The notes under the pieces were generated by a model that had not been told where the DNA came from, made no database searches, and saw nothing but the letters and a program-made list of their open reading frames with translations. From the IMG/VR virus record IMGVR_UViG_3300045988_111421: a stretch of DNA of 64,000 nt, one strand, 5' to 3'. Of the stretch, positions 44,475 to 52,240 are shown piece after piece. Position numbers and translations under genes: made by a program. The stretch comes from a virus. Within the stretch, counting starts at the first letter, position 1. Each line of letters opens with the position of its first letter.

Positions 44475-44867
44475 TTATATGTAATGCATGTACCCATCTC
44501 GGTGTATAAACCTTCCCGATTCAAAGCGCTCAATATCTTCAGGGCAAATAGGGCCCGAATCCTCTCTCCTGGCTTCAAACCAAAGCCCCGGCTTACGAAG
44601 TCGGCAAGTTATGATATAATTGAAGCAATTGTGCGTAAAATGGAAAACAGATCCTACAGGGAAATACCTATCAGCTTGAAATACGATTCTTTTTCGTTTA
44701 GTATCAAACGTGATATCTCCTACTATCTTAGCCACGTAATAGCTTCTGCCATTTAACGTTTCATCTGTTTGTGGTATCCAATAATAACCTCTTGCCATGC
44801 CACAAATATATAAAAAAAGTCGGACAAGATACATGTCCGACTTTATATTACTTTGATTCGTTTTCAA
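44475..44867 (-). CDS. Hypothetical protein (130 aa; possibly starts at the internal MARGYYW).
   Basis: ORF. Confidence 0.45.
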   Translation of the reverse strand: MKTNQSNIKSDMYLVRLFLYICGMARGYYWIPQTDETLNGRSYYVAKIVGDITFDTKRKRIVFQADRYFPVGSVFHFTHNCFNYIITCRLRKPGLWFEARREDSGPICPEDIERFESGRFIHRDGYMHYI

Positions 44868-45322
44868 ACCGCTTTATAAGAGAAGCAATATCATCACCAC
44901 AAACAAACATCATTCGACGTTCTTCTTTTGGTTTATGAGACACTGGGATGGTTTTGTTTATCTTAATCTGATTCGCCAGACCTCTGCCTAAACGAATATC
45001 AACTTTTTTACCTTTCATGAATTATTTGTTTAAACAGACCAATTCCATCTATTATAATATGACCGCTTTGCATACGACCATTATTAGGATTATGTAGAAA
45101 ATTGAAACCACTTTCTTTTTCCTGTCTTTCAAAAGAACTGATATCCTTTCCTCTACGGGCTCTTTCAAAAAGCTTTCTTGAACAACTTGCCTCTAAAGGT
45201 CTTGACGAGGATCTTGGTAGCGTTATTGCCGGCTTTTACCATTGTTTTCCTTGTCTGGTCCTCCGAGACAAAACTGCTTCGGAAAACATACGATGCTGCT
45301 GCTTGTATATCCTGCTTGGTAA

Positions 45323-45676
45323 TCATATGCAAAACATTCCTTTCAGAATACTGGTCTTTATTCCGTATATCAATTTCATGTTATCTCTATCATATACGCC
45401 AAAAAAGGATTCACTGGGGTCCTTTGGATTTACGCTCAGTTGAATTATGCAATTGTAAAGATAGACCTTAAGTTCATAATTATCAGAGTATCTATCCTGT
45501 ATGTTTTCAAATGTCTTAATTAATTCTTCAACAAGTACTCTGCTAAATGAAAAAGGTTCTCTACAATCACCTTTAAATATGATATGATTTAAATCATTGG
45601 TATTATCAAATTCGTACTCTACCCGACTGTCGTCCATCATATCATAAGTGATTGACTTTTTGATTTTAAATCCCAT
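45323..45676 (-). CDS. Hypothetical protein (117 aa).
   Basis: ORF. Confidence 0.5.
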   Translation of the reverse strand: MGFKIKKSITYDMMDDSRVEYEFDNTNDLNHIIFKGDCREPFSFSRVLVEELIKTFENIQDRYSDNYELKVYLYNCIIQLSVNPKDPSESFFGVYDRDNMKLIYGIKTSILKGMFCI

Positions 45677-45693
45677 ATTATTTTGTTTTTTAG

Positions 45694-46059
45694 TTAATAT
45701 AGATCTTCTGAATACAATTGTTCTCTAATGGCACTCCTATCTACTACCATTTCCTGATTATTGCTCTTAACAAGTTCAGATGCTTCCTCTCTTGTTAAAA
45801 ACTGATTCTTGCTTGTCAAAAATCCTTGAACACTACAGTTTTTATGGGCTATACCGTATGCCGCAAGTTGAGATAGTATAGAGGGGTGTCTCAATCCACA
45901 GAACACGGTGCCGGATGGTATATTGGTGGGCTGATAGGGTCGTTTCTTGTCGTCCTGTACCCAGATGGCCGCGCATATCACGATTTCTTTATTACACATG
46001 ACTATAAATTTAATATTCCGTTTTTGCCAATATGTTTCTTTTCTTCTTCGGTAGGCCAT
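45694..46059 (-). CDS. Hypothetical protein (121 aa; probably starts at the internal Met near 45999).
   Basis: ORF. The upstream part overlaps the next gene. Confidence 0.45.
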   Translation of the reverse strand: MAYRRRKETYWQKRNIKFIVMCNKEIVICAAIWVQDDKKRPYQPTNIPSGTVFCGLRHPSILSQLAAYGIAHKNCSVQGFLTSKNQFLTREEASELVKSNNQEMVVDRSAIREQLYSEDLY

Positions 46060-46277
46060 TCTTTCTTGAACTTACCGTGCCACGTTCCAGGAACTACCAC
46101 CTCTTCGCCTCCCTTACTATATTCAATAGCGGCACATTCAGAACAAAGAGGCTTGCCTTCATATCCCTTTAGCGACTTATCGTAAATACGATTCTTACAA
46201 GGTCTTATAAGAGCCCAGTAATATGATGTGGCTGTATTATCTATACAGCCACATTTTGAACATACAAACAAGCTCAT
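46002..46277 (-). CDS. Zn-ribbon protein (91 aa; CSKCGC...CSEC).
   Basis: Cys pairs. ATGA overlap upstream. Confidence 0.5.
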   Translation of the reverse strand: MSLFVCSKCGCIDNTATSYYWALIRPCKNRIYDKSLKGYEGKPLCSECAAIEYSKGGEEVVVPGTWHGKFKKEWPTEEEKKHIGKNGILNL

Positions 46278-47140
46278 TCCGCAATCTCCCAGTCATTAGA
46301 CATAATATCATGTTCGGTTGGATTCCAATTTGATGCTACTTTTTGACCTGTATCTACCATCAATATATTTACGTCAGACATACAGATATACTTTTTACCC
46401 CAATCGATTCTTTTTATCTTACGACCTAATTTAAGCCGTTCTAAAGCCTGTTCGAATGTCATGCCACGACGAGGCAGTTTGAGATACTTTTTAAGTCTGT
46501 CGGCAGCTTCATTTGGTGTATGGCCATCGTATTCGAAAGCGGTTTCTCTTTCAGGAACATCAAACAAATCCCAGTATTTGCTTTCATAGTGATTAGATAC
46601 CTGACCGGTAGGTAGGATCGCCATCACAATAAACCAATCATCAGAACCGAAGCATTTTTCTCCGTCGCTGTGTCTCCTTGATTTGCAAACTTCAACCTGT
46701 CCGCTTCTGGCTAATAGATTAAAGAAGGCAGCGTTATACAACATGCGATACCTATACAATTCATTGAAAGTGTGGTATCCGTCAGAGACTTCTCCCACGT
46801 CTACAGGCTTCTTGTTTTGAATACTACCCAAAATGTTCTCTATATAGAGCTGTATTTTATACATACCCATTTCGGTGTGGCCGTATTTGTTCAAGATATT
46901 ATTGACATCGTATTGTATATTAAAATCTTTTTCAAATTCTACTTCAGGATGATTAGGATAGCAGTAGTCCACTGATGCTTCTAACACAGACTTTATGTGT
47001 TCTATTATCCTCGCAACATCATCATGTTTAAAAAAATGCTTAAATCTTTCAACGAATTTAATATCTTCGTTGATTGCTGATTCGAACTCTTCTTTTGTCA
47101 TCACTCTAATTACATCTTTTTTTAAATCGTCTAATCCCAT
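46274..47140 (-). CDS. 288-aa protein whose C-terminal ~85 aa resemble DUF2829 (Tad2-like) domains.
   Basis: MTFEQALERLKLGRKIKRIDWGKKYI ... NWNPTEHDIMSNDWEIAE, compared with my recollection of the DUF2829 pattern (F.EAL.ALK.GKK..R..W ... DWEIVE). Confidence 0.5.
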   Translation of the reverse strand: MGLDDLKKDVIRVMTKEEFESAINEDIKFVERFKHFFKHDDVARIIEHIKSVLEASVDYCYPNHPEVEFEKDFNIQYDVNNILNKYGHTEMGMYKIQLYIENILGSIQNKKPVDVGEVSDGYHTFNELYRYRMLYNAAFFNLLARSGQVEVCKSRRHSDGEKCFGSDDWFIVMAILPTGQVSNHYESKYWDLFDVPERETAFEYDGHTPNEAADRLKKYLKLPRRGMTFEQALERLKLGRKIKRIDWGKKYICMSDVNILMVDTGQKVASNWNPTEHDIMSNDWEIAE

Positions 47141-47163
47141 GATTTATTTTAAATTAGTTGTTA

Positions 47164-47796
47164 TTATACTTTTTTTATCCTACAATACAAATCCAATAAG
47201 AACTCAGCAGAAAAACCATCCCATGCATTATTCTGCCAAATATCTACTTTGTTAACAAACCAAGACCATATGGGACCCTCATATGAAGAATCAGATGATG
47301 ATCCCAATCCGATTTCCTCCATTTCATTCGCCACATCAGAATAAGGATCTAAATCGACTCCCCTAATCATGTTAATAATATCACCCTTGTCTAATGTAAA
47401 TTGAAACCGCTCCTTGTTAGTAAGCGAATCTTGATTCAATTTACCAGTCGCAAGCCATTCTCCATCATGATACAATTCGGCAAGTTTCTTTACCTTATTT
47501 TTAAGAAAAGAATACTCTTGTGTGACTTCTATAAAATCAGCTTCGTTAGCTTCACCCTCTATGAAGATAACGGTTTTGCTTCCAGGTCTATGATCGTCTA
47601 AGCTTGCCGGGATTCCCAATATCGTCCATCCTTTAAACTCAGCTATCTTAAAACGCATGACATCAAACACCTTATAGAAATCATCACAATCTACAGATTC
47701 TATTACCTTAATATCCTCTTCTGTGAATTTACCTCGTATTGGAATAACGTGATGACCGGGGCAGCCATCGGTTCCGAAATATGCGATTCTAACCAC
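47164..47796 (-). CDS. Hypothetical protein (210 aa).
   Basis: ORF. Confidence 0.55.
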   Translation of the reverse strand: MVRIAYFGTDGCPGHHVIPIRGKFTEEDIKVIESVDCDDFYKVFDVMRFKIAEFKGWTILGIPASLDDHRPGSKTVIFIEGEANEADFIEVTQEYSFLKNKVKKLAELYHDGEWLATGKLNQDSLTNKERFQFTLDKGDIINMIRGVDLDPYSDVANEMEEIGLGSSSDSSYEGPIWSWFVNKVDIWQNNAWDGFSAEFLLDLYCRIKKV

Positions 47797-47816
47797 GATA
47801 TTTACAATATTTTAAT

Positions 47817-48032
47817 TTATTTTGCTAAAACATTCATATAACATGGCACATCTACCACATCTCTTCTACGAAGTCCCTTATCAAAATAGGAAACCATATA
47901 AGTATTTTTACCTTCGTGATCAGGTCTGGGATCAAAACATTCAAAAACGAATCTTGTTATACCTTCCAAATGACCAAGCATGAAAACAAATTCGCCACTG
48001 TATCTTTTATTAGCCAATTCTTCTACAGTCAT
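47817..48032 (-). CDS. Hypothetical protein (71 aa).
   Basis: ORF. Confidence 0.4.
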   Translation of the reverse strand: MTVEELANKRYSGEFVFMLGHLEGITRFVFECFDPRPDHEGKNTYMVSYFDKGLRRRDVVDVPCYMNVLAK

Positions 48033-48256
48033 AATCTGTCCCCTCCTAATCCTGAATTGATGCTAACGTACTTAACACGGACATCATTTCCACGTCCAAG
48101 CTGACCCCAGCCGGGCGATGGCGTTCCCTTGGCCGGAGCAGGGACAGCCCTAAGCCGAGACCAGTCCTGCTTTTGCCTCATGGCTTCAGCCTCTTTGTAA
48201 TACCGGTTACACAGTTCTTGATCTTCGTAACCAGCGTAATCTTCCTTATTTTCCAT
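48029..48256 (-). CDS. Hypothetical protein (75 aa).
   Basis: ATGA overlap. Confidence 0.4.
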   Translation of the reverse strand: MENKEDYAGYEDQELCNRYYKEAEAMRQKQDWSRLRAVPAPAKGTPSPGWGQLGRGNDVRVKYVSINSGLGGDRL

Positions 48257-48326
48257 ATAGAATACTTTTTCAACAAAAGTACGACATTCATGTATTAATT
48301 AGATTTAAAATAAAACAATATGAATT

Positions 48327-48361
48327 AAAATAAAAACCCGATACGTTAAAATCGCATCGGG
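48327..48361 (-). terminator. Rho-independent-type terminator on the - strand: stem CCCGATGCG/CGTATCGGG (one mismatch), loop of 7, followed by TTTTTATTTT.
   Basis: Read directly from the reverse complement. Confidence 0.55.
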
Positions 48362-48384
48362 CCTGGTATTGAAAAAAAATAGGT

Positions 48385-48561
48385 TCAGATCTTGGGTAAA
48401 GATTCGAGCCAATTTTTAACATCTTTATATTTAGGGTCTTTGTCTATTCTATCTTTCAGTTCATGCAATGCTGAGTCCATAACCGTATTCGGTACGCCAA
48501 TCAACTCTCCTATTAAATACAATGGGGTTTTATTCGATTTAGATTCGTGTGCTATATTCAT
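48385..48561 (-). CDS. Small hypothetical protein (58 aa; MNIAHESKSNKTPLYLIGELIGVPNTVMDSALHELKDRIDKDPKYKDVKNWLESLPKI).
   Basis: Translated by hand. Directly upstream of the terminator at 48327-48361. Below the track cut-off. Confidence 0.35.
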   Translation of the reverse strand: MNIAHESKSNKTPLYLIGELIGVPNTVMDSALHELKDRIDKDPKYKDVKNWLESLPKI

Positions 48562-48649
48562 GTCAAAAAAAAAGTTATGTGAAACAAACCGGCCACGGGT
48601 ATTCTATTGCCCGCCGACCGGTATAATATTTTTATTCCTTTTTTTCCAA

Positions 48650-48675
48650 ACGGGAAAAACGGGAATGCGGGAATC
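48650..48675. repeat. Three CGGGAA units at 9-bp spacing (ACGGGAAAAACGGGAATGCGGGAATC) in a 470-bp non-coding gap. An imperfect palindrome GGATCT-CAGGTC-AGATCC lies just downstream.
   Basis: Read directly. Confidence 0.6.
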
Positions 48676-48725
48676 ATATTTTTTACTATGGCTCCCGCAC
48701 CACCGGAAGGACCTGGATCTGGATC

Positions 48726-49019
48726 TCAGGTCAGATCCTTCCAGTTTATTTTTTCGCCGAGGTAATCTTGCACGGCAAGCCATCTTATAAAGGCTACTCC
48801 TTCGGGAGCATCCGGATCATCCAAATACATTAACGTAGCTTTCACCAACTCGTTCTCACATTTGAAGACCTTCGGAAAACCATCCGAATAGTACATTGCA
48901 AAGACATATTGGACATCGCCCCATGTCGCTTTATCCGGCTTCTTCGCTCCGCACTTTTCAAAAATATCTTTTATTTCCGGCTGCTTCCAGATCCTCTTGG
49001 ATCCATCGACGTTGACCAT
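48726..49019 (-). CDS. Hypothetical protein (97 aa).
   Basis: ORF. Confidence 0.5.
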   Translation of the reverse strand: MVNVDGSKRIWKQPEIKDIFEKCGAKKPDKATWGDVQYVFAMYYSDGFPKVFKCENELVKATLMYLDDPDAPEGVAFIRWLAVQDYLGEKINWKDLT

Positions 49020-49112
49020 CTTCTTTACCGCCTCATCAGCGAGAGCATTAGAAAAATGGTAGCCGTAAGTATCTACATATTTCTGATAAGCTGGATCCTC
49101 TGCGTCTGCTCC

Positions 49113-49490
49113 TCAATAAGAACGACCTCTGCCACGTCCGCGACCTCTACGCATCTGAGGTCCGTCACCGTAGTATCTGTCGTCTCCATAGTAATCGGTC
49201 GGGTAGGATTCGTAACCCATCCTCCGGTATTCCCGGTCCTCCATTTCATGACGACGTTCGCGCTCTTCAAGCCTTCTTTCCCTTTCTTCCAGCTCGTTTT
49301 CGCGTTCTTCCATTTCCTTCATCTTCTCATGCATACCGTAATGATCATAAGGAGGAAGGAACCCATGTCCGTACTCCATGTACGTCCCATCAGAACGACG
49401 GCTTCTGCCTCTGCCTCCACCTCGCCTATCTTCTATCTCATCATATCCAGGATATTCTCTGTGTCCTGAATTTAAATCATATACTATCAT
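49113..49490 (-). CDS. Low-complexity Arg/Gly- and Glu/Arg-rich protein (125 aa). Has RGRGRGRGR termini and an EERERRLEERERR core.
   Basis: ORF in operon orientation. Overlapped by shorter ORFs in other frames, which I consider spurious. Confidence 0.45.
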   Translation of the reverse strand: MIVYDLNSGHREYPGYDEIEDRRGGGRGRSRRSDGTYMEYGHGFLPPYDHYGMHEKMKEMEERENELEERERRLEERERRHEMEDREYRRMGYESYPTDYYGDDRYYGDGPQMRRGRGRGRGRSY

Positions 49491-49497
49491 ATTATAC

Positions 49498-49851
49498 TTA
49501 TTTCAAACGTTCTACAATTAACTTCTTTAAATCTTCGAATGAATCAGTAAGGTCATTCACCTTATTTTCTATACCAGCTATTTTACGATCCTGCTCTCTC
49601 GTTTGTTTGAATGCCGGATTGATGTCTTCTAATATAGATTCACAAGCCTCTATCTTGGCACGATGGGCATCTACGCTATTTATTATGTCTTGACTGGTGT
49701 TTTTTATAGCATTCAGTTCGTTCATAATCGGATCTATGCTGGTAGATAATGTTATGCCCATAGCCTTAGCCACATTCTGGGATTCCGGGACCGTATAGGT
49801 CTTGGTTTCGCCAGTGAGCTCTACCGTCAGATCCACCACGCGGGTCTGCAT
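49498..49851 (-). CDS. Hypothetical protein (117 aa).
   Basis: ORF 8 nt upstream of the RG-rich gene. Confidence 0.5.
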   Translation of the reverse strand: MQTRVVDLTVELTGETKTYTVPESQNVAKAMGITLSTSIDPIMNELNAIKNTSQDIINSVDAHRAKIEACESILEDINPAFKQTREQDRKIAGIENKVNDLTDSFEDLKKLIVERLK

Positions 49852-50042
49852 CGCCTGATACTGACCTGGCTAAGGAGGAAGATACCTGGGTTCGGATACG
49901 GCTACTACCTTTCCCAATTCGTATTTAGGTACTGTATTAGTATCAAGGGTATGTACCTGAAACCCTTTCTTCAAATCTGAAAACATGATCAAAATATTAG
50001 TTAGGTGAAAATAGGGTGATGATCTTCATCACCCTACTGAAA

Positions 50043-50456
50043 TCATTTACCTGCTTTAACTTCAGACGCCTGGGCTGTTGTTGTCGGAACACAACAATCC
50101 ATTAATCTTAACACGCCACGAACTTTATTGAAGTACAGAAGGCGTTCTGTGCCATTTACCATAGCAGCACCCGTGACAGCTACGTTAATAGGGTTCACGA
50201 CATTCACTCCCGTAACCGGGCAACAGGTGTCGGCTCCTACTGTTGAAACTGTGCTGTTTGCCGGGACCGCAATCTGTACCGGTAGAGCACTTCCGGCTGT
50301 GGGGACTACTTGCCTTATCTTAAGAAGGATAAGACCCTCACACGGAAGGGCGATCCAAGCCCGTGGGTTAATACCGAAGACTGTATTTGTCGTACTGACA
50401 ATAACATTCTTCGTAACCATCTCATACAACGATCCTATTTTAGAAACACAAGCCAT
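50043..50456 (-). CDS. Hypothetical protein with Cys doublets (137 aa; CCPVTG, MDCCVP).
   Basis: ORF. Confidence 0.5.
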   Translation of the reverse strand: MACVSKIGSLYEMVTKNVIVSTTNTVFGINPRAWIALPCEGLILLKIRQVVPTAGSALPVQIAVPANSTVSTVGADTCCPVTGVNVVNPINVAVTGAAMVNGTERLLYFNKVRGVLRLMDCCVPTTTAQASEVKAGK

Positions 50457-50479
50457 ATTAGCCTCCTTTCTTAATAAAA

Positions 50480-51487
50480 TCAGACAGCAGCGTTGTTATT
50501 GCAACATCCGTTGTTACATCCGCATCCGTTATTACAGCAACCTCCTCCGAATACCTGTCCCCAAGTATAAGCCTGGTAAGGAGAACAAGAGGGGTAGGCC
50601 GGGACGGCCGTCGGGCGTAATTGACCAACGATATTCTGGGTTTGTTGCTGAGATAATGCCGAAGCTGTCAAAGCCGCTTTTTCTTCACGAAGTTGAGCAA
50701 TAGTGTTCTGCATCTCCCTCATTTCCAACTGACAGAATTTGTCGTTGATCATAACGGTTTGGGCGTCAAGTTTCGCAGACAAGATATTGAATTGGCTTGT
50801 AGCTTGCTCACGATTGTTAGCCAGACCTTGGTTGAGACCATTCTGCAAGATATTGGTTTGTTCCAACGTGCGAAGCTGGTTATCAAAACCTTGCTGAGTA
50901 ATCATTCCCTGAGTCTGGCAAGTGCTTTGATTGATCAACGAACTCAGATTGCAGCAGCAAGAGCTGATTTGATTTCCTATTTCACAACCTTGTTGTTGAA
51001 CTGCGTTGATAACAGCCTGAGAAGTCATACCTACCTGACCAGCTACTTTATCAATAGCACCCTGTACGTTGCAGATAGCGTTCTGAAGTTGAGTAGTAGA
51101 ACAGTTCAAAGCAGAAGCAATCTGATCTATGGCGCTACGATTACCTTGAATTGCCTGCATCAAAAGTTCACGACCGTAATCGTTATTCAACTGAGCCGGC
51201 AAACCATTGGCGCAACAATCACCGCCATTTCCAAAACCGTTACCGAAGCCGCGTCCACCCCACAGCCAGAACAAAACAATTATCCAGAGCCACCAACCGT
51301 TAGCCCCACCGAAACCGTCCTGGTTGTTACGACCGTTCATCAAAGCCGCCACCAGATTCAGATCCATTTTATTACCACCTATCAAATTAGCAAACATGCC
51401 GGGAATCATTGAAAGAAGACCGTTAGTGGCCGCACCACCACCGTTAGCCCCGGCTCCATCTAAAAGGACGATTTTATCACCACCCAT
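50480..51487 (-). CDS. Gly/Asn/Gln/Cys-rich low-complexity protein (about 336 aa from the ATG at 51487). One Trp-rich TM helix. C-terminal GGGCCNNGCGCNNGCCNNN tail.
   Basis: MGGDKIVLLDGAGANGGG start. WWLWIIVLFWLWGG. Multiple CxxxC/CCC motifs. The track ORF extended a further 25 codons upstream. Confidence 0.5.
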   Translation of the reverse strand: MGGDKIVLLDGAGANGGGAATNGLLSMIPGMFANLIGGNKMDLNLVAALMNGRNNQDGFGGANGWWLWIIVLFWLWGGRGFGNGFGNGGDCCANGLPAQLNNDYGRELLMQAIQGNRSAIDQIASALNCSTTQLQNAICNVQGAIDKVAGQVGMTSQAVINAVQQQGCEIGNQISSCCCNLSSLINQSTCQTQGMITQQGFDNQLRTLEQTNILQNGLNQGLANNREQATSQFNILSAKLDAQTVMINDKFCQLEMREMQNTIAQLREEKAALTASALSQQQTQNIVGQLRPTAVPAYPSCSPYQAYTWGQVFGGGCCNNGCGCNNGCCNNNAAV

Positions 51488-51562
51488 AATTTTATAGTAT
51501 TTAATTGTTAAACATACGTGCATGAAGCACGTAACAAAGACCATGATTGCAGGGTGGAACAA

Positions 51563-52240
51563 GGCTGAGTTTGTTTCCGATAAAATGGAAGGATTTTCAG
51601 TAAAAACGGAAATATAATATACAACGAGTAGTTTTCCCCATTTATGGGGAAAAATTGATAATCAGCAACTTTCGCTTTTCCTTTTTTGGGTAAAGCGCTG
51701 TAAATCAAAACAGGATCCGCATCACTGCGAATCCTGCCTCAACTAATCTAAACTAAAATACCATGAAAAACTTTTCCCTACTAAAACTAAAGAACGAACA
51801 AATGTATGAAAATACATGCTTTTCACAAAGAATCCGTATCCTGTTCTTTGGTATGGTTAAGTACATGGGATATAGTTCTGATACTTAATCCGGTTTGATT
51901 TTGTATCAGATTATAAATATAGGATTTTGAAACTACAGTTCTTAATTGACCTAAATCATTCATAATGTTTTTATACATAAGATGAATGCTGTTGTTACAT
52001 TTGATGGTACTGATTCTCATTTCCTACTGTTATTAGTTACGTTCGGTTCTTACTTTTCCCTATTTTCTATAATCCCTTCCTGAAACTAATATCGCAAACT
52101 TAACAAAAATAATTCATAAACAATGAAAATCTAACTTTTCTTGTATGTTATTGATATACGTACATATATGAGAAAAGTGAGACTTTCACAAGCCTCACTT
52201 TCCAAATCGTAATTATGAAAAAACTATATATATACAAAAA
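51563..52240. other. A 680-bp non-coding gap inside the - strand block. Contains hairpins TTTTCCCCA-TTTA-TGGGGAAAA, GGATCCGCA-TCAC-TGCGAATCC and AGTGAG-n12-CTCACT.
   Basis: No ORF over 66 codons in operon orientation. Inverted repeats read directly. Confidence 0.5.

What the first reader, a model, noticed from the sequence alone, without database searches (positions are those of the whole stretch)
49113..51487. Cluster of unusual low-complexity late proteins
Three adjacent - strand genes have unusual composition:
- (i) 49113..49490: GGGRGRSRR...RGRGRGRGRSY termini with an EERERRLEERERR core.
- (ii) 50043..50456: Cys doublets (CCPVTG, MDCCVP).
- (iii) 50480..51487: Gly-rich N-terminus, a Trp-rich TM helix WWLWIIVLFWLWGG, a long Gln/Asn-rich region with paired Cys, and a GGGCCNNGCGCNNGCCNNNAAV tail.

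They do not fit common structural-protein families. Candidates include capsid-internal DNA-condensing or ejected proteins, a metal- or disulfide-rich membrane-active protein, or a phase-separating scaffold.
Basis: seen in the sequence. Interest (0 to 1): 0.55.

Follow-up and report, generated by a model that had tools for sequence, protein, structure and literature searches.

The report
Conserved accessory gene cassette in gut phages
The three odd-looking genes are real and belong to one conserved, uncharacterised and dispensable gene cassette found in many phages of gut Bacteroidales, often beside the lysis genes, and one of them is joined to the next gene by a conserved in-frame stop codon.

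Summary
All three minus-strand ORFs exist as described. Genes (i) and (iii) are compositional extremes of the window; (ii) is only moderately Cys-rich.

They are not independent oddities. They are three parts of one cassette: small HTH, (iii), (ii), coiled-coil protein, charged low-complexity protein (i), DUF7841, often followed by an HExxH protein. This order recurs in several crassvirus families, in cultured Bacteroides and Parabacteroides phages, and in 46-47 of 53 loci found through DUF7841 alone.

- (iii), phrog_16490: a probable membrane-anchored coiled coil. Nearly all its Cys lie after the hydrophobic segment.
- (ii): a beta-sandwich with no close solved relative. Its Cys doublets are clade-specific.
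- (i): coding in the RG frame. A conserved in-frame TGA links it to DUF7841, with no start codon before the domain's first helix. Leaky readthrough is the best reading.

The cassette abuts holin or endolysin genes in five phage groups, though not in this phage. About 20% of close relatives have deleted part of it. That argues against essential capsid-internal proteins. Function is unproven. I favour a late, envelope- or lysis-linked accessory role, with a dispensable virion fibre as the main rival.

The parts
51823..52020 (-). Small ORF (65 aa) directly upstream of (iii). Possible HTH regulator of the cassette.
   Evidence: Its csAssE-Sib orthologue is annotated as a LacI-type repressor fragment. 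In 19 other loci the gene directly upstream of (iii) is a small HTH protein. My own Pfam scan of this ORF found nothing at E<=0.01, so this part is tentative.
50480..51487 (-). Gene (iii), 335 aa. It has a Cys-free N-terminal part, a Gly-flanked aromatic hydrophobic segment (residues about 64-78), a long helical heptad region with an invariant CCC, a Pro-rich linker and a Gly/Cys/Asn tail. It is the probable membrane component of the cassette.
   Evidence: phrog_16490 at E 8.9e-43. 3271 homologues and 913 clusters at 50% identity. Family alignment and invariant columns. Cys 0.5 before versus 9.2 after the hydrophobic segment across 52 family members. AlphaFold gave secondary structure only, pLDDT 38.6.
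50043..50456 (-). Gene (ii), 137 aa. An eight-strand beta-sandwich protein with no signal peptide. It is an optional cassette member.
50013..50035 (-). Perfect 10-bp hairpin (AGGGTGATGA aga TCATCACCCT) followed by ATTTT, just after the stop of (ii). Possible attenuator or RNA-stability element between (ii) and the coiled-coil gene.
   Evidence: Read directly from the sequence. The terminator scan did not report it because the T-run is short. Its conservation was not tested.
49498..49992 (-). Coiled-coil cassette gene (164 aa in relatives): an N-terminal beta domain plus a C-terminal coiled coil. In this window it is interrupted by a private TAG at 49870..49872.
   Evidence: phrog_28898 at E 3.9e-13. 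csAssE-Sib has CAG at this codon, as do all 69 of 69 close relatives that retain the site. Homologues occur in 30 phage records and co-occur with (iii) and DUF7841.
49113..49490 (-). Gene (i), 125 aa. An RG-rich, intrinsically disordered protein with an ER/K-type charged helical core. It ends RGRGRGRGRSY, followed by TGA at 49113..49115.
   Evidence: The frame is open in 143 of 143 relatives. pN/pS is 0.37. Equivalent charged low-complexity ORFs ending in an R/G-rich stretch plus Tyr occupy the same position in 33 other loci and in C3_41T2LP, cr273_1 and cr116_1.
48726..49112 (-). Complete DUF7841 domain coding region. The 31 codons at 49020..49112, between the TGA and the annotated Met, encode the first helix of the domain and contain no start codon.
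   Evidence: The Pfam PF25223 score rises from 37.2 to 63.1 bits, covering profile positions 7-112, when the 31 codons are included. Linker pN/pS is 0.25, against 0.27 for the rest of the domain. The TGA and its frame are conserved in 81 of 81 and 80 of 80 loci of two lineages. The annotated Met is a conserved internal residue of the domain.
48334..48364 (-). Terminator-like hairpin (12 pairs plus a T-run) downstream of the cassette. Likely end of the transcription unit.
   Evidence: Consensus scan. This is a pattern match only.

Best explanation
**What it is.** The three ORFs are genuine genes and are components of one conserved accessory cassette of Bacteroidales phages. The usual order is small HTH, (iii), (ii), coiled-coil protein, charged low-complexity protein (i), DUF7841, often followed by an HExxH protein.

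**How it is built (shown unless marked inferred).**
- (iii) is the only component with a hydrophobic segment. Inferred: it sits in the cytoplasmic membrane with a short Cys-free N-terminus inside. Outside, it would carry a long coiled coil held by disulfides, around an invariant CCC, ending in a Gly/aromatic/Cys tail that faces the periplasm or outer membrane.
- (ii), the coiled-coil protein, (i) and DUF7841 have no signal peptides. Inferred: they act on the cytoplasmic side.
- (i) is a disordered RG-rich protein with an ER/K-type helix.
- Inferred: (i) is also made, at low level, as an N-terminal extension of DUF7841. This would happen by leaky reading of a conserved in-frame UGA, giving two isoforms. 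Other phages encode the same combination as a single ORF.

**What it most likely does (inferred).** It is a late-expressed, non-essential, envelope-acting module functionally coupled to host lysis. It might tune the timing or completeness of envelope disruption, or otherwise modify the envelope of the infected cell. It is not a capsid-internal or DNA-condensing protein set.

**Why it is unstable.** Its Gly/Arg-rich repeats make it prone to microhomology-mediated deletion, and such deletions are tolerated.
For: **Cassette conservation and order**
- Seen in cr7_1, cr273_1 and BF503P2, C3_41T2LP, cr116_1 and cr1_1 and PD691P6.
- In 53 loci retrieved through DUF7841 alone, (iii) lies upstream in 46 and the coiled-coil gene in 47, in the same order.
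- 33 of those loci have a charged low-complexity ORF in the gap.

**Lysis proximity**
- The cassette is adjacent to or nested among holin and endolysin genes in cr116_1, cr1_1, cr273_1, BF503P2, PD691P6 and Segatella prophages.
- Pfam confirms Phage_holin_4_1 and Amidase_2 for these neighbours.

**Topology of (iii)**
- It has a single hydrophobic segment.
- Cys count is 0.5 before that segment and 9.2 after it, across 52 family members.
- The predicted secondary structure is helical.

**Link between (i) and DUF7841**
- The in-frame TGA is conserved in 161 of 161 loci.
- No ATG, GTG, TTG, CTG or ATN codon lies in frame before the first helix of the domain.
- The linker is under purifying selection, pN/pS 0.25.
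- The Pfam score doubles when the linker is included.
- Natural single-ORF fusions exist in both orders: cr118_1 and PD691P6 with the low-complexity region N-terminal, cr1_1 with it C-terminal.

**Dispensability**
- Many independent deletion chimeras exist.
- 16 of 79 close relatives lack one or more of the genes.
- Deletion junctions overlap by 1-15 nt and fall at GGRG repeats.
- This window carries a private nonsense codon in the coiled-coil gene.
Against: - In this phage the cassette is not next to lysis genes. csAssE-Sib has an M15 endopeptidase, a TM protein and a signal-peptide protein about 55 kb away.
- Several carriers also encode separate spanin-like proteins (lipobox plus C-terminal TMD, or DUF6549), so the cassette does not replace a spanin.
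- Gene neighbourhood is circumstantial. In temperate phages the lysis module also borders the tail-fibre genes and the moron region.
- The membrane topology of (iii) is inferred. Flanking charges are uninformative, the hydrophobic stretch is short at 12-16 residues, and AlphaFold gave no confident model.
- (iii)-like genes occur alone in viruses assigned to wall-less archaeal hosts.
- (ii) weakly resembles tail-fibre knobs.
- Readthrough has no experimental support, no stimulatory RNA structure and no suppressor tRNA.
Confidence: 0.4

Rival explanations
1. The cassette encodes a dispensable virion fibre or decoration. (iii) would form a disulfide-stapled trimeric coiled-coil shaft. (ii) would be a knob-like beta-sandwich and the coiled-coil protein an adaptor. 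They would decorate the capsid or tail, like the crAss001 head fibres gp21 and gp29 or the phi29 head fibre gp8.5, which phages can lose without dying.
For: - The genes lie on the same strand as giant virion genes and between them.
- (iii) has long heptad helices.
- Crassvirus virions do contain disulfides and small head fibres, and groups without gp21/gp29 homologues are expected to have analogues (PMC10172136).
- Dispensability and hypervariability are typical of decoration and adhesin genes.
- In PD691P6 the cassette directly follows tail-fibre genes. In seven crAss-like contigs a ring-protein gene follows it.
Against: - A conserved Gly-flanked hydrophobic segment near the N-terminus of (iii) is unusual for a fibre. 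The near-absence of Cys before it and abundance after it points to a membrane boundary.
- This rival does not explain the charged disordered protein, DUF7841, the HExxH protein or the dedicated HTH.
- (ii) is missing from many cassettes.
- The structural matches are below usual significance.
- No component has a homologue in crAss001, the only crassvirus with a structural atlas.
Confidence: 0.25
2. The cassette is a conflict module, either superinfection exclusion or counter-defence. A membrane protein, (iii), with cytoplasmic partners would block entry or development of competing phages, or neutralise a host defence. Such a module is conditionally useful and therefore often lost.
For: - It lies in a hypervariable island that also holds a WDGH + Tad2-like (anti-Thoeris) gene, and in relatives carries Bro-N and AntA antirepressor and TnpB insertions.
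- It has its own small HTH gene upstream in 19 loci.
- It sits next to the integrase, at the prophage end, in 8 loci. That is a typical moron position.
- Independent deletions recur in two unrelated crassvirus lineages.
- Membrane-anchored proteins with an external domain are typical of exclusion systems (established knowledge, not tested here).
Against: - No significant match to PADLOC defence models; the only hits were weak coiled-coil-type matches.
- Apart from Tad2 in a different gene, nothing here matches a Pfam or NCBIfam anti-defence family.
- Five or six genes is elaborate for known exclusion systems.
- The cassette is conserved in fixed order across very different phages, including apparently strictly lytic crassviruses. 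That suggests a function in the phage's own cycle.
Confidence: 0.2
3. One reading: essential late structural proteins, meaning capsid-internal DNA-condensing or ejected proteins, or a phase-separating scaffold.
For: - RG/RGG-rich termini of (i) could bind nucleic acid (inference from composition).
- The genes sit between the giant genes that, in crassviruses, encode ejected cargo proteins.
- The crAss001 cargo protein gp45 has a predicted TM helix (PMC10172136).
Against: - 16 of 79 near-identical genomes have lost one or more of the genes. A variant lacking all of (i), the coiled-coil gene and half of (ii) is seen on 25 contigs up to 152 kb.
- This window's own coiled-coil gene carries a nonsense codon.
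- The cassette occupies different genomic positions in different phages, often within lysis modules.
- No homologue exists in crAss001.
Confidence: 0.08

Closest known systems
PHROG families phrog_16490 and phrog_28898, and Pfam DUF7841 (PF25223): catalogued families of unknown function
   Same: (iii) matches phrog_16490 at E 8.9e-43. The coiled-coil gene matches phrog_28898 at E 3.9e-13. The region downstream of (i) matches DUF7841 at 63 bits, against a cut-off of 25.2.
   Different: These entries carry no function. I found no paper mentioning them. The linkage of these families into one ordered cassette, together with (ii) and the charged protein (i), is not recorded in any annotation I saw.
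Spanins of Gram-negative phages: i-spanin Rz with o-spanin Rz1, and the unimolecular spanin T1 gp11
   Same: Like an i-spanin, (iii) has a hydrophobic anchor near the N-terminus, a long coiled-coil region and Cys residues placed where intermolecular disulfides could form. The cassette often lies in or beside the lysis module.
   Different: - (iii) is about twice the size of an i-spanin.
- There is no lipoprotein partner; (ii) has no signal peptide or lipobox.
- There is no sequence match to spanin families.
- Separate spanin-like genes coexist in the same phages.
- The cassette is dispensable, and in this phage it lies far from the lysis genes.
T4 holin T with antiholins RI and RIII (lysis-inhibition system)
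   Same: It is a bitopic membrane protein with a large, disulfide-containing external domain and soluble partners. It is non-essential, so loss-of-function variants arise readily. This rests on established knowledge and is an analogy only.
   Different: There is no sequence or fold evidence. The carriers already encode Phage_holin_4_1 holins. No lysis phenotype is known.
Coronavirus spike S2 heptad repeat 1 (class I fusion proteins)
   Same: The conserved LLMQAIQGN..AI.QLA..LN core of (iii) gives weak profile matches to HR1 peptides, E 0.007-0.3. This is evidently the source of the public labels 'spike protein/glycoprotein' and 'outer capsid protein/viral fiber'.
   Different: The matches are below significance, cover about 40 residues and reflect Q/N/A/I/L heptad composition. 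There is no evidence of homology or of a fusion function.
crAss001 head fibres gp21 and gp29, and phi29 head fibre gp8.5
   Same: These are small late proteins, with a beta-sandwich or coiled-coil build, that phages can lose. The crAss001 authors expect uncharacterised analogues in other crassvirus groups.
   Different: No sequence similarity was found between the cassette proteins and crAss001. The fold match of (ii) to fibre knobs is weak. (iii) carries a hydrophobic segment that head fibres lack.
Leaky UGA readthrough giving a C-terminally extended minor protein, as in the phage Q-beta A1 protein
   Same: There is a conserved in-frame UGA between two coding regions. The downstream part is under purifying selection and has no start codon of its own. 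No suppressor tRNA is needed.
   Different: Readthrough is not demonstrated experimentally here. No stimulatory structure was found. The host is a Bacteroidales bacterium, for which I know of no described case. The extension is a whole folded domain that other phages express separately.

Membership tests
phrog_16490 (unknown function) | Significant full-length match to the family HMM | tested here: met
   E 8.9e-43, 148 bits, residues 37-328 against profile positions 6-284 of 286. An archaeal-virus homologue carries the same PHROG label in its record.
Pfam DUF7841 (PF25223) | Score above the gathering threshold over the whole domain | tested here: met
   63.1 bits against a cut-off of 25.2, profile positions 7-112 of 114. 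This holds only when the 31 codons between the TGA of gene (i) and the annotated Met are included. From the Met alone the score is 37.2 bits and the match starts at profile position 28.
i-spanin (Rz-like) | N-terminal transmembrane anchor with the bulk of the protein in the periplasm | tested here: inconclusive
   There is one hydrophobic segment (residues about 64-78; family median start about residue 49). Cys count is 0.5 before it and 9.2 after it, which fits an external C-terminal part.
i-spanin (Rz-like) | Cognate outer-membrane lipoprotein (o-spanin) gene embedded in, overlapping or adjacent to it | tested here: not met
   The adjacent gene (ii) has no signal peptide or lipobox. Its Cys3 is clade-specific. 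Lipobox-bearing genes in relatives are separate genes outside the cassette.
i-spanin (Rz-like) | Location within the lysis cassette | tested here: not met
   Not met in this phage: the M15 endopeptidase cassette of csAssE-Sib is about 55 kb away. Met or nearly met in cr1_1, cr116_1, cr273_1, PD691P6, BF503P2 and Segatella prophages.
Holin | Small membrane protein matching a holin family, usually with a charged C-terminus | tested here: not met
   No holin family was hit in Pfam, NCBIfam or PHROGs. The protein is 335 aa with a Gly/Cys/Asn C-terminus. The carriers have separate Phage_holin_4_1 genes.
Programmed stop-codon readthrough | In-frame stop conserved across diverged relatives | tested here: met
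   TGA in 81 of 81 loci of the window's lineage and in 80 of 80 loci of a lineage with about 61% amino-acid identity in gene (i).
Programmed stop-codon readthrough | Downstream codons under purifying selection, with no alternative start codon | tested here: met
   Linker pN/pS is 0.25 with pS 0.82. No ATG, GTG, TTG, CTG or ATN lies in frame between the TGA and the first helix. The first Met is a conserved internal residue of the domain.
Programmed stop-codon readthrough | Detection of the extended protein | not testable with these tools
   This needs proteomics or ribosome profiling of infected cells.
Genome-wide stop-codon reassignment (TAG to Gln or TGA to Trp, as in some crassviruses) | Many in-frame recoded stops in late genes, and a phage suppressor tRNA | tested here: not met
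   Only one in-frame TAG and one in-frame TGA affect real genes in 64 kb. The TAG is private to this window; 69 of 69 relatives have CAG. No suppressor tRNA is present in the window or in csAssE-Sib positions 1-95 kb.
Class I fusion / 'spike' protein (the public annotation of homologues) | Significant similarity to a fusion-protein family | tested here: not met
   The best PDB profile hit is coronavirus S2 HR1 at E 0.0073 over about 40 residues; the rest are at E>0.08. No Pfam hit.
   63 of 79 loci are intact, and 13 lack both (iii) and (ii). The deletion variant P0230 is on 25 contigs up to 152 kb.
   No proteomics exists for any carrier. No paper mentions the cultured carriers. crAss001 has no homologue.

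The most novel reading that the evidence does not exclude
The cassette is a previously unrecognised multi-protein machine of Bacteroidales phages that acts on the host envelope at the end of infection. It would be a new class of lysis-control, outer-membrane-disruption or exclusion system. It would be built around a disulfide-stapled, membrane-anchored coiled coil, and regulated in part by programmed UGA readthrough that sets the ratio of a free disordered RG protein to its DUF7841-fused form.
Probability: 0.3. Interest if true: 0.75.

Novelty: new variant of a known kind. Interest (0 to 1): 0.55.

Why it matters
- **Abundance.** Crassviruses and other Bacteroidales phages are the most abundant viruses of the human gut, yet most of their genes have no function, and lysis and envelope interactions in Bacteroidales are poorly understood.
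- **A defined target.** The odd proteins belong to one ordered cassette that is conserved across several virus families. It is present in three groups of cultured phages (C3_41T2LP, PD691P6-like and BF503P2-like). Scattered "hypothetical proteins" thus become a concrete experimental target.
- **A possible recoding case.** The conserved in-frame UGA between gene (i) and DUF7841 is a candidate for programmed readthrough in a Bacteroidales phage. It also shows that current annotations truncate the DUF7841 gene.
- **Annotation errors.** Public labels such as "spike protein/glycoprotein" for the homologues come from coiled-coil composition and should not be propagated.
- **Natural variation.** The recurrent natural deletions offer ready-made mutants for population-level tests of what the cassette costs and provides.

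Tried and rejected
- **Stop-codon reassignment.** I suspected it after seeing an in-frame TAG and an in-frame TGA within 1 kb. I rejected it because the TAG is a private nonsense mutation, there are no other in-frame stops in real genes and there are no suppressor tRNAs.
- **Selenocysteine or a structured recoding signal at the TGA.** There is no Rfam match and no stable downstream fold, z +1.06.
- **(iii) as the phage's canonical spanin or holin.** Rejected because a separate lysis cassette exists in csAssE-Sib, separate spanin-like and holin genes exist in other carriers, and there is no family match.
- **Structure of (iii).** AlphaFold failed, pLDDT 38.6. Only close homologues could be supplied, so no fold search was run on that model.
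- **Profile searches against PDB.** (ii), (iii) and DUF7841 gave nothing significant.
- **PADLOC and NCBIfam.** Only coiled-coil noise. Pfam on 35 diverse (iii) members gave nothing.
- **Literature.** Searches for csAssE-Sib, DUF7841/PF25223/phrog_16490 and the cultured carriers returned nothing.
- **First DUF7841 profile.** It was too divergent for the genome scan, so I replaced it with a four-sequence profile.
- **Gene (i) in lineage 2.** tblastn could not assess its intactness there because the sequence is low-complexity and diverged. I used the regex-based ORF check instead.


Full report
**Identity of the window.** The region is 94% identical at the DNA level to phage csAssE-Sib (OR575929, 151 kb, human gut), a crAss-like phage. 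The three ORFs lie on the minus strand among small genes. These are flanked by giant genes of 2137, 758 and 2238 aa, annotated in the relative as structural proteins.

- All three ORFs and all quoted motifs are present.
- Among 59 same-strand ORFs, (i) is the extreme for Gly, Arg and Glu+Arg.
- (iii) is the extreme for Gln+Asn (about 22%; mean 8.1, sd 3.0) and second for Cys.
- (ii) is only moderately Cys-rich at 4.4%.
- The ATG at 51487 is the conserved start of (iii).

**The coding frames are right.**
- For (i), only the RG-rich frame is open in all 143 full-length copies from two diverged lineages. The 186-codon antisense ORF is broken in all 72 copies of the second lineage.
- pN/pS between lineages is 0.37 in the RG frame. 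Every indel among relatives keeps the frame.
- (iii) has 3271 homologues and 913 clusters at 50% identity. It matches phrog_16490 at E 8.9e-43.
- (ii) has 139 close homologues and 337 by profile search.

**The three genes are parts of one cassette.** Reading the neighbours of homologues shows a recurring ordered set: (iii), (ii) or another small protein, a 165-190 aa protein with a beta N-terminus and a coiled-coil C-terminus (window 49498..49992, phrog_28898), a short highly charged low-complexity protein, and a DUF7841 protein. I saw it in these phages:
- cr7_1, cr273_1 and BF503P2
- the cultured Bacteroides phage C3_41T2LP, where all five occur in the window's order
- cr116_1 and cr1_1
- the cultured Parabacteroides phage PD691P6

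As an independent test I retrieved 53 loci from bacterial genome assemblies using a DUF7841 profile only.
- Local HMMs then found (iii) upstream in 46 and the coiled-coil gene in 47, always in the same order. The misses are mostly at contig ends.
- The roughly 300-nt gap before DUF7841 holds a charged ORF in 33 loci. It is 54-127 aa, 34-60% D/E/K/R/H, and ends in an Arg/Gly-rich stretch plus Tyr (...RRRRY...RGRGRGRY...GRYSRY). This is the design of gene (i).
- A protein of about 134 aa with an HExxH motif follows DUF7841 in 18 loci.
- A small HTH gene precedes (iii) in 19 loci.

**Gene (iii).** The family alignment shows these features in order:
- a short N-terminal region
- a Gly-flanked, aromatic-rich hydrophobic segment
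- a conserved LLMQAIQGN...LNC...AIC core
- an invariant CCC
- a long coiled coil
- a Pro-rich linker
- a Gly/aromatic tail ending in GCGC or FWG/FWN

The long Cys/Asn tail of the window protein is a clade-specific elaboration of that end. Across 52 full-length family members, Cys is nearly absent before the hydrophobic segment (0.5 on average) and abundant after it (9.2). I read this as a membrane boundary, with the Cys-rich part outside the cytoplasm. This is an inference.

AlphaFold gave no confident model (pLDDT 38.6). It predicts almost only helices, including one of about 97 residues. The only similarity to solved structures is a sub-significant match of the heptad core to coronavirus HR1. 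That match explains the misleading "spike protein" labels in public records.

**Gene (ii).**
- AlphaFold predicts an eight-strand beta-sandwich: pLDDT 76.9, about 90 in the core.
- In BFVD the significant hits are uncharacterised small proteins of many gut phages. They are followed by weak hits to knobs of tail fibres and collagen-like fibres.
- (ii) is absent from several cassettes.

**Gene (i) and the TGA.**
- Gene (i) ends in TGA (49113..49115) and is in frame with the downstream ORF annotated from a Met at 49019.
- The 31 codons in between encode the first helix of DUF7841. Including them raises the Pfam score from 37 to 63 bits.
- They contain no possible start codon.
- They are under the same purifying selection as the rest of the domain: pN/pS 0.25 against 0.27, with pS about 0.82.
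- The annotated Met is a conserved internal residue of the domain.
- The TGA, its frame and the following 11 nt are conserved in 81 of 81 loci of the window's lineage and 80 of 80 of a second lineage, even though gene (i) has diverged to 61% identity.
- Other phages encode the same pair either as two genes with separate starts or as one polypeptide. In cr118_1 and PD691P6 the low-complexity region is N-terminal; in cr1_1 it is C-terminal.
- I found no suppressor tRNA, no genome-wide recoding, no recoding RNA family and no stable structure after the stop.

The simplest explanation is leaky UGA termination. It would yield mostly the 125-aa protein and a minor 254-aa fusion. This is inferred, not shown.

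**The TAG.** The in-frame TAG in the coiled-coil gene (49870..49872) is CAG in csAssE-Sib and in all 69 close relatives that retain the site. It is a private nonsense mutation, not recoding.

**Dispensability and instability.**
- Protein searches returned many chimeras that are about 99-100% identical up to different breakpoints: (iii) to (ii), (iii) to coiled-coil, (iii) to DUF7841, (ii) to DUF7841, and (iii) to (i).
- The same pattern occurs in the unrelated cr1_1 lineage.
- Among 79 loci with an identical DUF7841, 63 keep all four upstream genes and 13 lack both (iii) and (ii).
- The variant P0230 lacks half of (ii), the coiled-coil gene and all of (i). It is on 25 contigs up to 152 kb.
- Junctions overlap by 1-15 nt and include GGRG-to-GGRG joins between (iii) and (i). 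The Gly/Arg-rich repeats therefore promote microhomology-mediated deletion.
- The whole 44.8-52.1 kb stretch is mosaic among near-identical genomes.
- That stretch also holds a WDGH + Tad2-like gene and insertion sites for antirepressor and TnpB genes.
- One caveat applies. Loci were found through DUF7841, so loss of DUF7841 itself cannot be assessed.

**Function.** The most consistent contextual signal is proximity to lysis genes.
- cr1_1: the cassette lies between a Phage_holin_4_1 gene and the endolysin.
- cr116_1: it follows holin, endolysin and TerS.
- cr273_1: it is one gene away from the endolysin.
- BF503P2, PD691P6 and Segatella prophages: DUF7841 abuts the holin.
- Lipobox plus C-terminal-TMD proteins and multi-TM proteins recur within three genes upstream.

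Together with the inferred topology of (iii), I favour a late, non-essential, envelope-acting module coupled to lysis. My confidence in that complete statement is about 0.4. That the genes form one conserved cassette I consider about 0.9 likely.

Points against this reading:
- In this phage the likely lysis cassette is 55 kb away.
- Spanin-like genes coexist with the cassette in other carriers.
- (iii)-like genes occur alone in viruses assigned to Methanomassiliicoccales.
- Neighbourhood alone cannot separate lysis genes from adjacent fibre or moron regions.

The main rival is a dispensable fibre or decoration. It is supported by the fibre-knob-like fold of (ii), the heptad helices, and the known disulfides and small head fibres of crAss001. 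A conflict module (exclusion or counter-defence) is also possible.

**Novelty.** The individual families are catalogued as unknowns (two PHROGs and one Pfam DUF). I found no literature on them or on the cultured carriers. To my knowledge the following are not described:
- the linkage into one cassette
- the lysis-proximal pattern
- the recurrent deletions
- the conserved in-frame UGA

Because the function is unproven and my preferred reading places it among phage envelope and lysis accessories, I rate it as a new variant of a known kind, with moderate interest.

Noticed in passing
window 49870..49872 (minus strand): There is a private TAG nonsense codon in the coiled-coil cassette gene. csAssE-Sib and all 69 of 69 close relatives that retain the site have CAG (Gln). 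In this genome it splits the gene into 40-aa and 117-aa ORFs.
   Followed up: yes
window 46274..47140 (minus strand): A 288-aa protein carries a WDGH domain (E 1.7e-36) and a Tad2-like Thoeris anti-defence domain (E 7.6e-11). It lies in the same variable island as the cassette.
   Followed up: partly
window about 44800..52100: This is a hypervariable island. Among 80 genomes with an identical DUF7841 gene, almost every one has a different combination of insertions, deletions and replacements. Recurrent insertion points are 51613..51700 (0.9-1.1 kb, carrying a Bro-N antirepressor in csAssE-Sib), 48428 (about 1.35 kb in at least 8 loci) and 47121..47818.
   Followed up: partly
window 51701..51773 (minus strand): A sub-threshold Rfam match to the Bacteroidetes FopS sRNA family (31.8 bits against a gathering score of 56, E 0.049) lies immediately next to the 51613..51700 insertion hot spot, upstream of gene (iii).
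   Followed up: no
window 50013..50035 and 48334..48364 (minus strand): A perfect 10-bp hairpin with a short T-run lies right after gene (ii). A 12-pair terminator-like hairpin lies downstream of the cassette. Together they suggest two transcriptional sub-units. Neither was tested for conservation.
   Followed up: no
L169 1418..1762 (cr116_1); L192 4555..4959 and L177 9388..9909 (prophages): Proteins of about 114-173 aa have an N-terminal lipobox (LSAC, LLAGC or LILGC) and a C-terminal transmembrane segment, next to holin or endolysin genes. This is the architecture of unimolecular spanins, but they match no Pfam family. They are candidate spanins of Bacteroidales phages.
   Followed up: partly
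L086 7509..7973 (C3_41T2LP), L169 6036..6431 (cr116_1) and 18 genome loci: A small protein (131-154 aa in the phage records, about 134 aa in the genome loci) with an HExxH motif, annotated 'PolyVal metallopeptidase' in one record, directly follows DUF7841 in many cassettes. The window has no counterpart. My Pfam scan of a representative found no family.
   Followed up: partly
L171 3674..4597 (Caudoviricetes sp. vir335) and vir215: Homologues of gene (iii), with the hydrophobic segment, the LNC motif and two CCC motifs, occur without the rest of the cassette in viruses assigned to Methanomassiliicoccales archaea.
   Followed up: partly
L184 7905..8342 and L187 413..793: In two other phage contigs the DUF7841 gene itself is interrupted by an in-frame TGA (L184) or TAG (L187). 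This fits genuine stop-codon reassignment in those phages, unlike in the window.
   Followed up: no
Public records OR575929, MT774389, NC_055895, OR296439 and others: Homologues of gene (iii) are annotated 'spike protein/glycoprotein' or 'outer capsid protein/viral fiber'. The only basis I could find is a sub-significant heptad-repeat match to coronavirus HR1.
   Followed up: yes
L087 45751..47816 (csAssE-Sib, outside the window): The closest relative carries an annotated diversity-generating retroelement (VR, TR and reverse transcriptase) that targets a putative tail-fibre gene.
   Followed up: no
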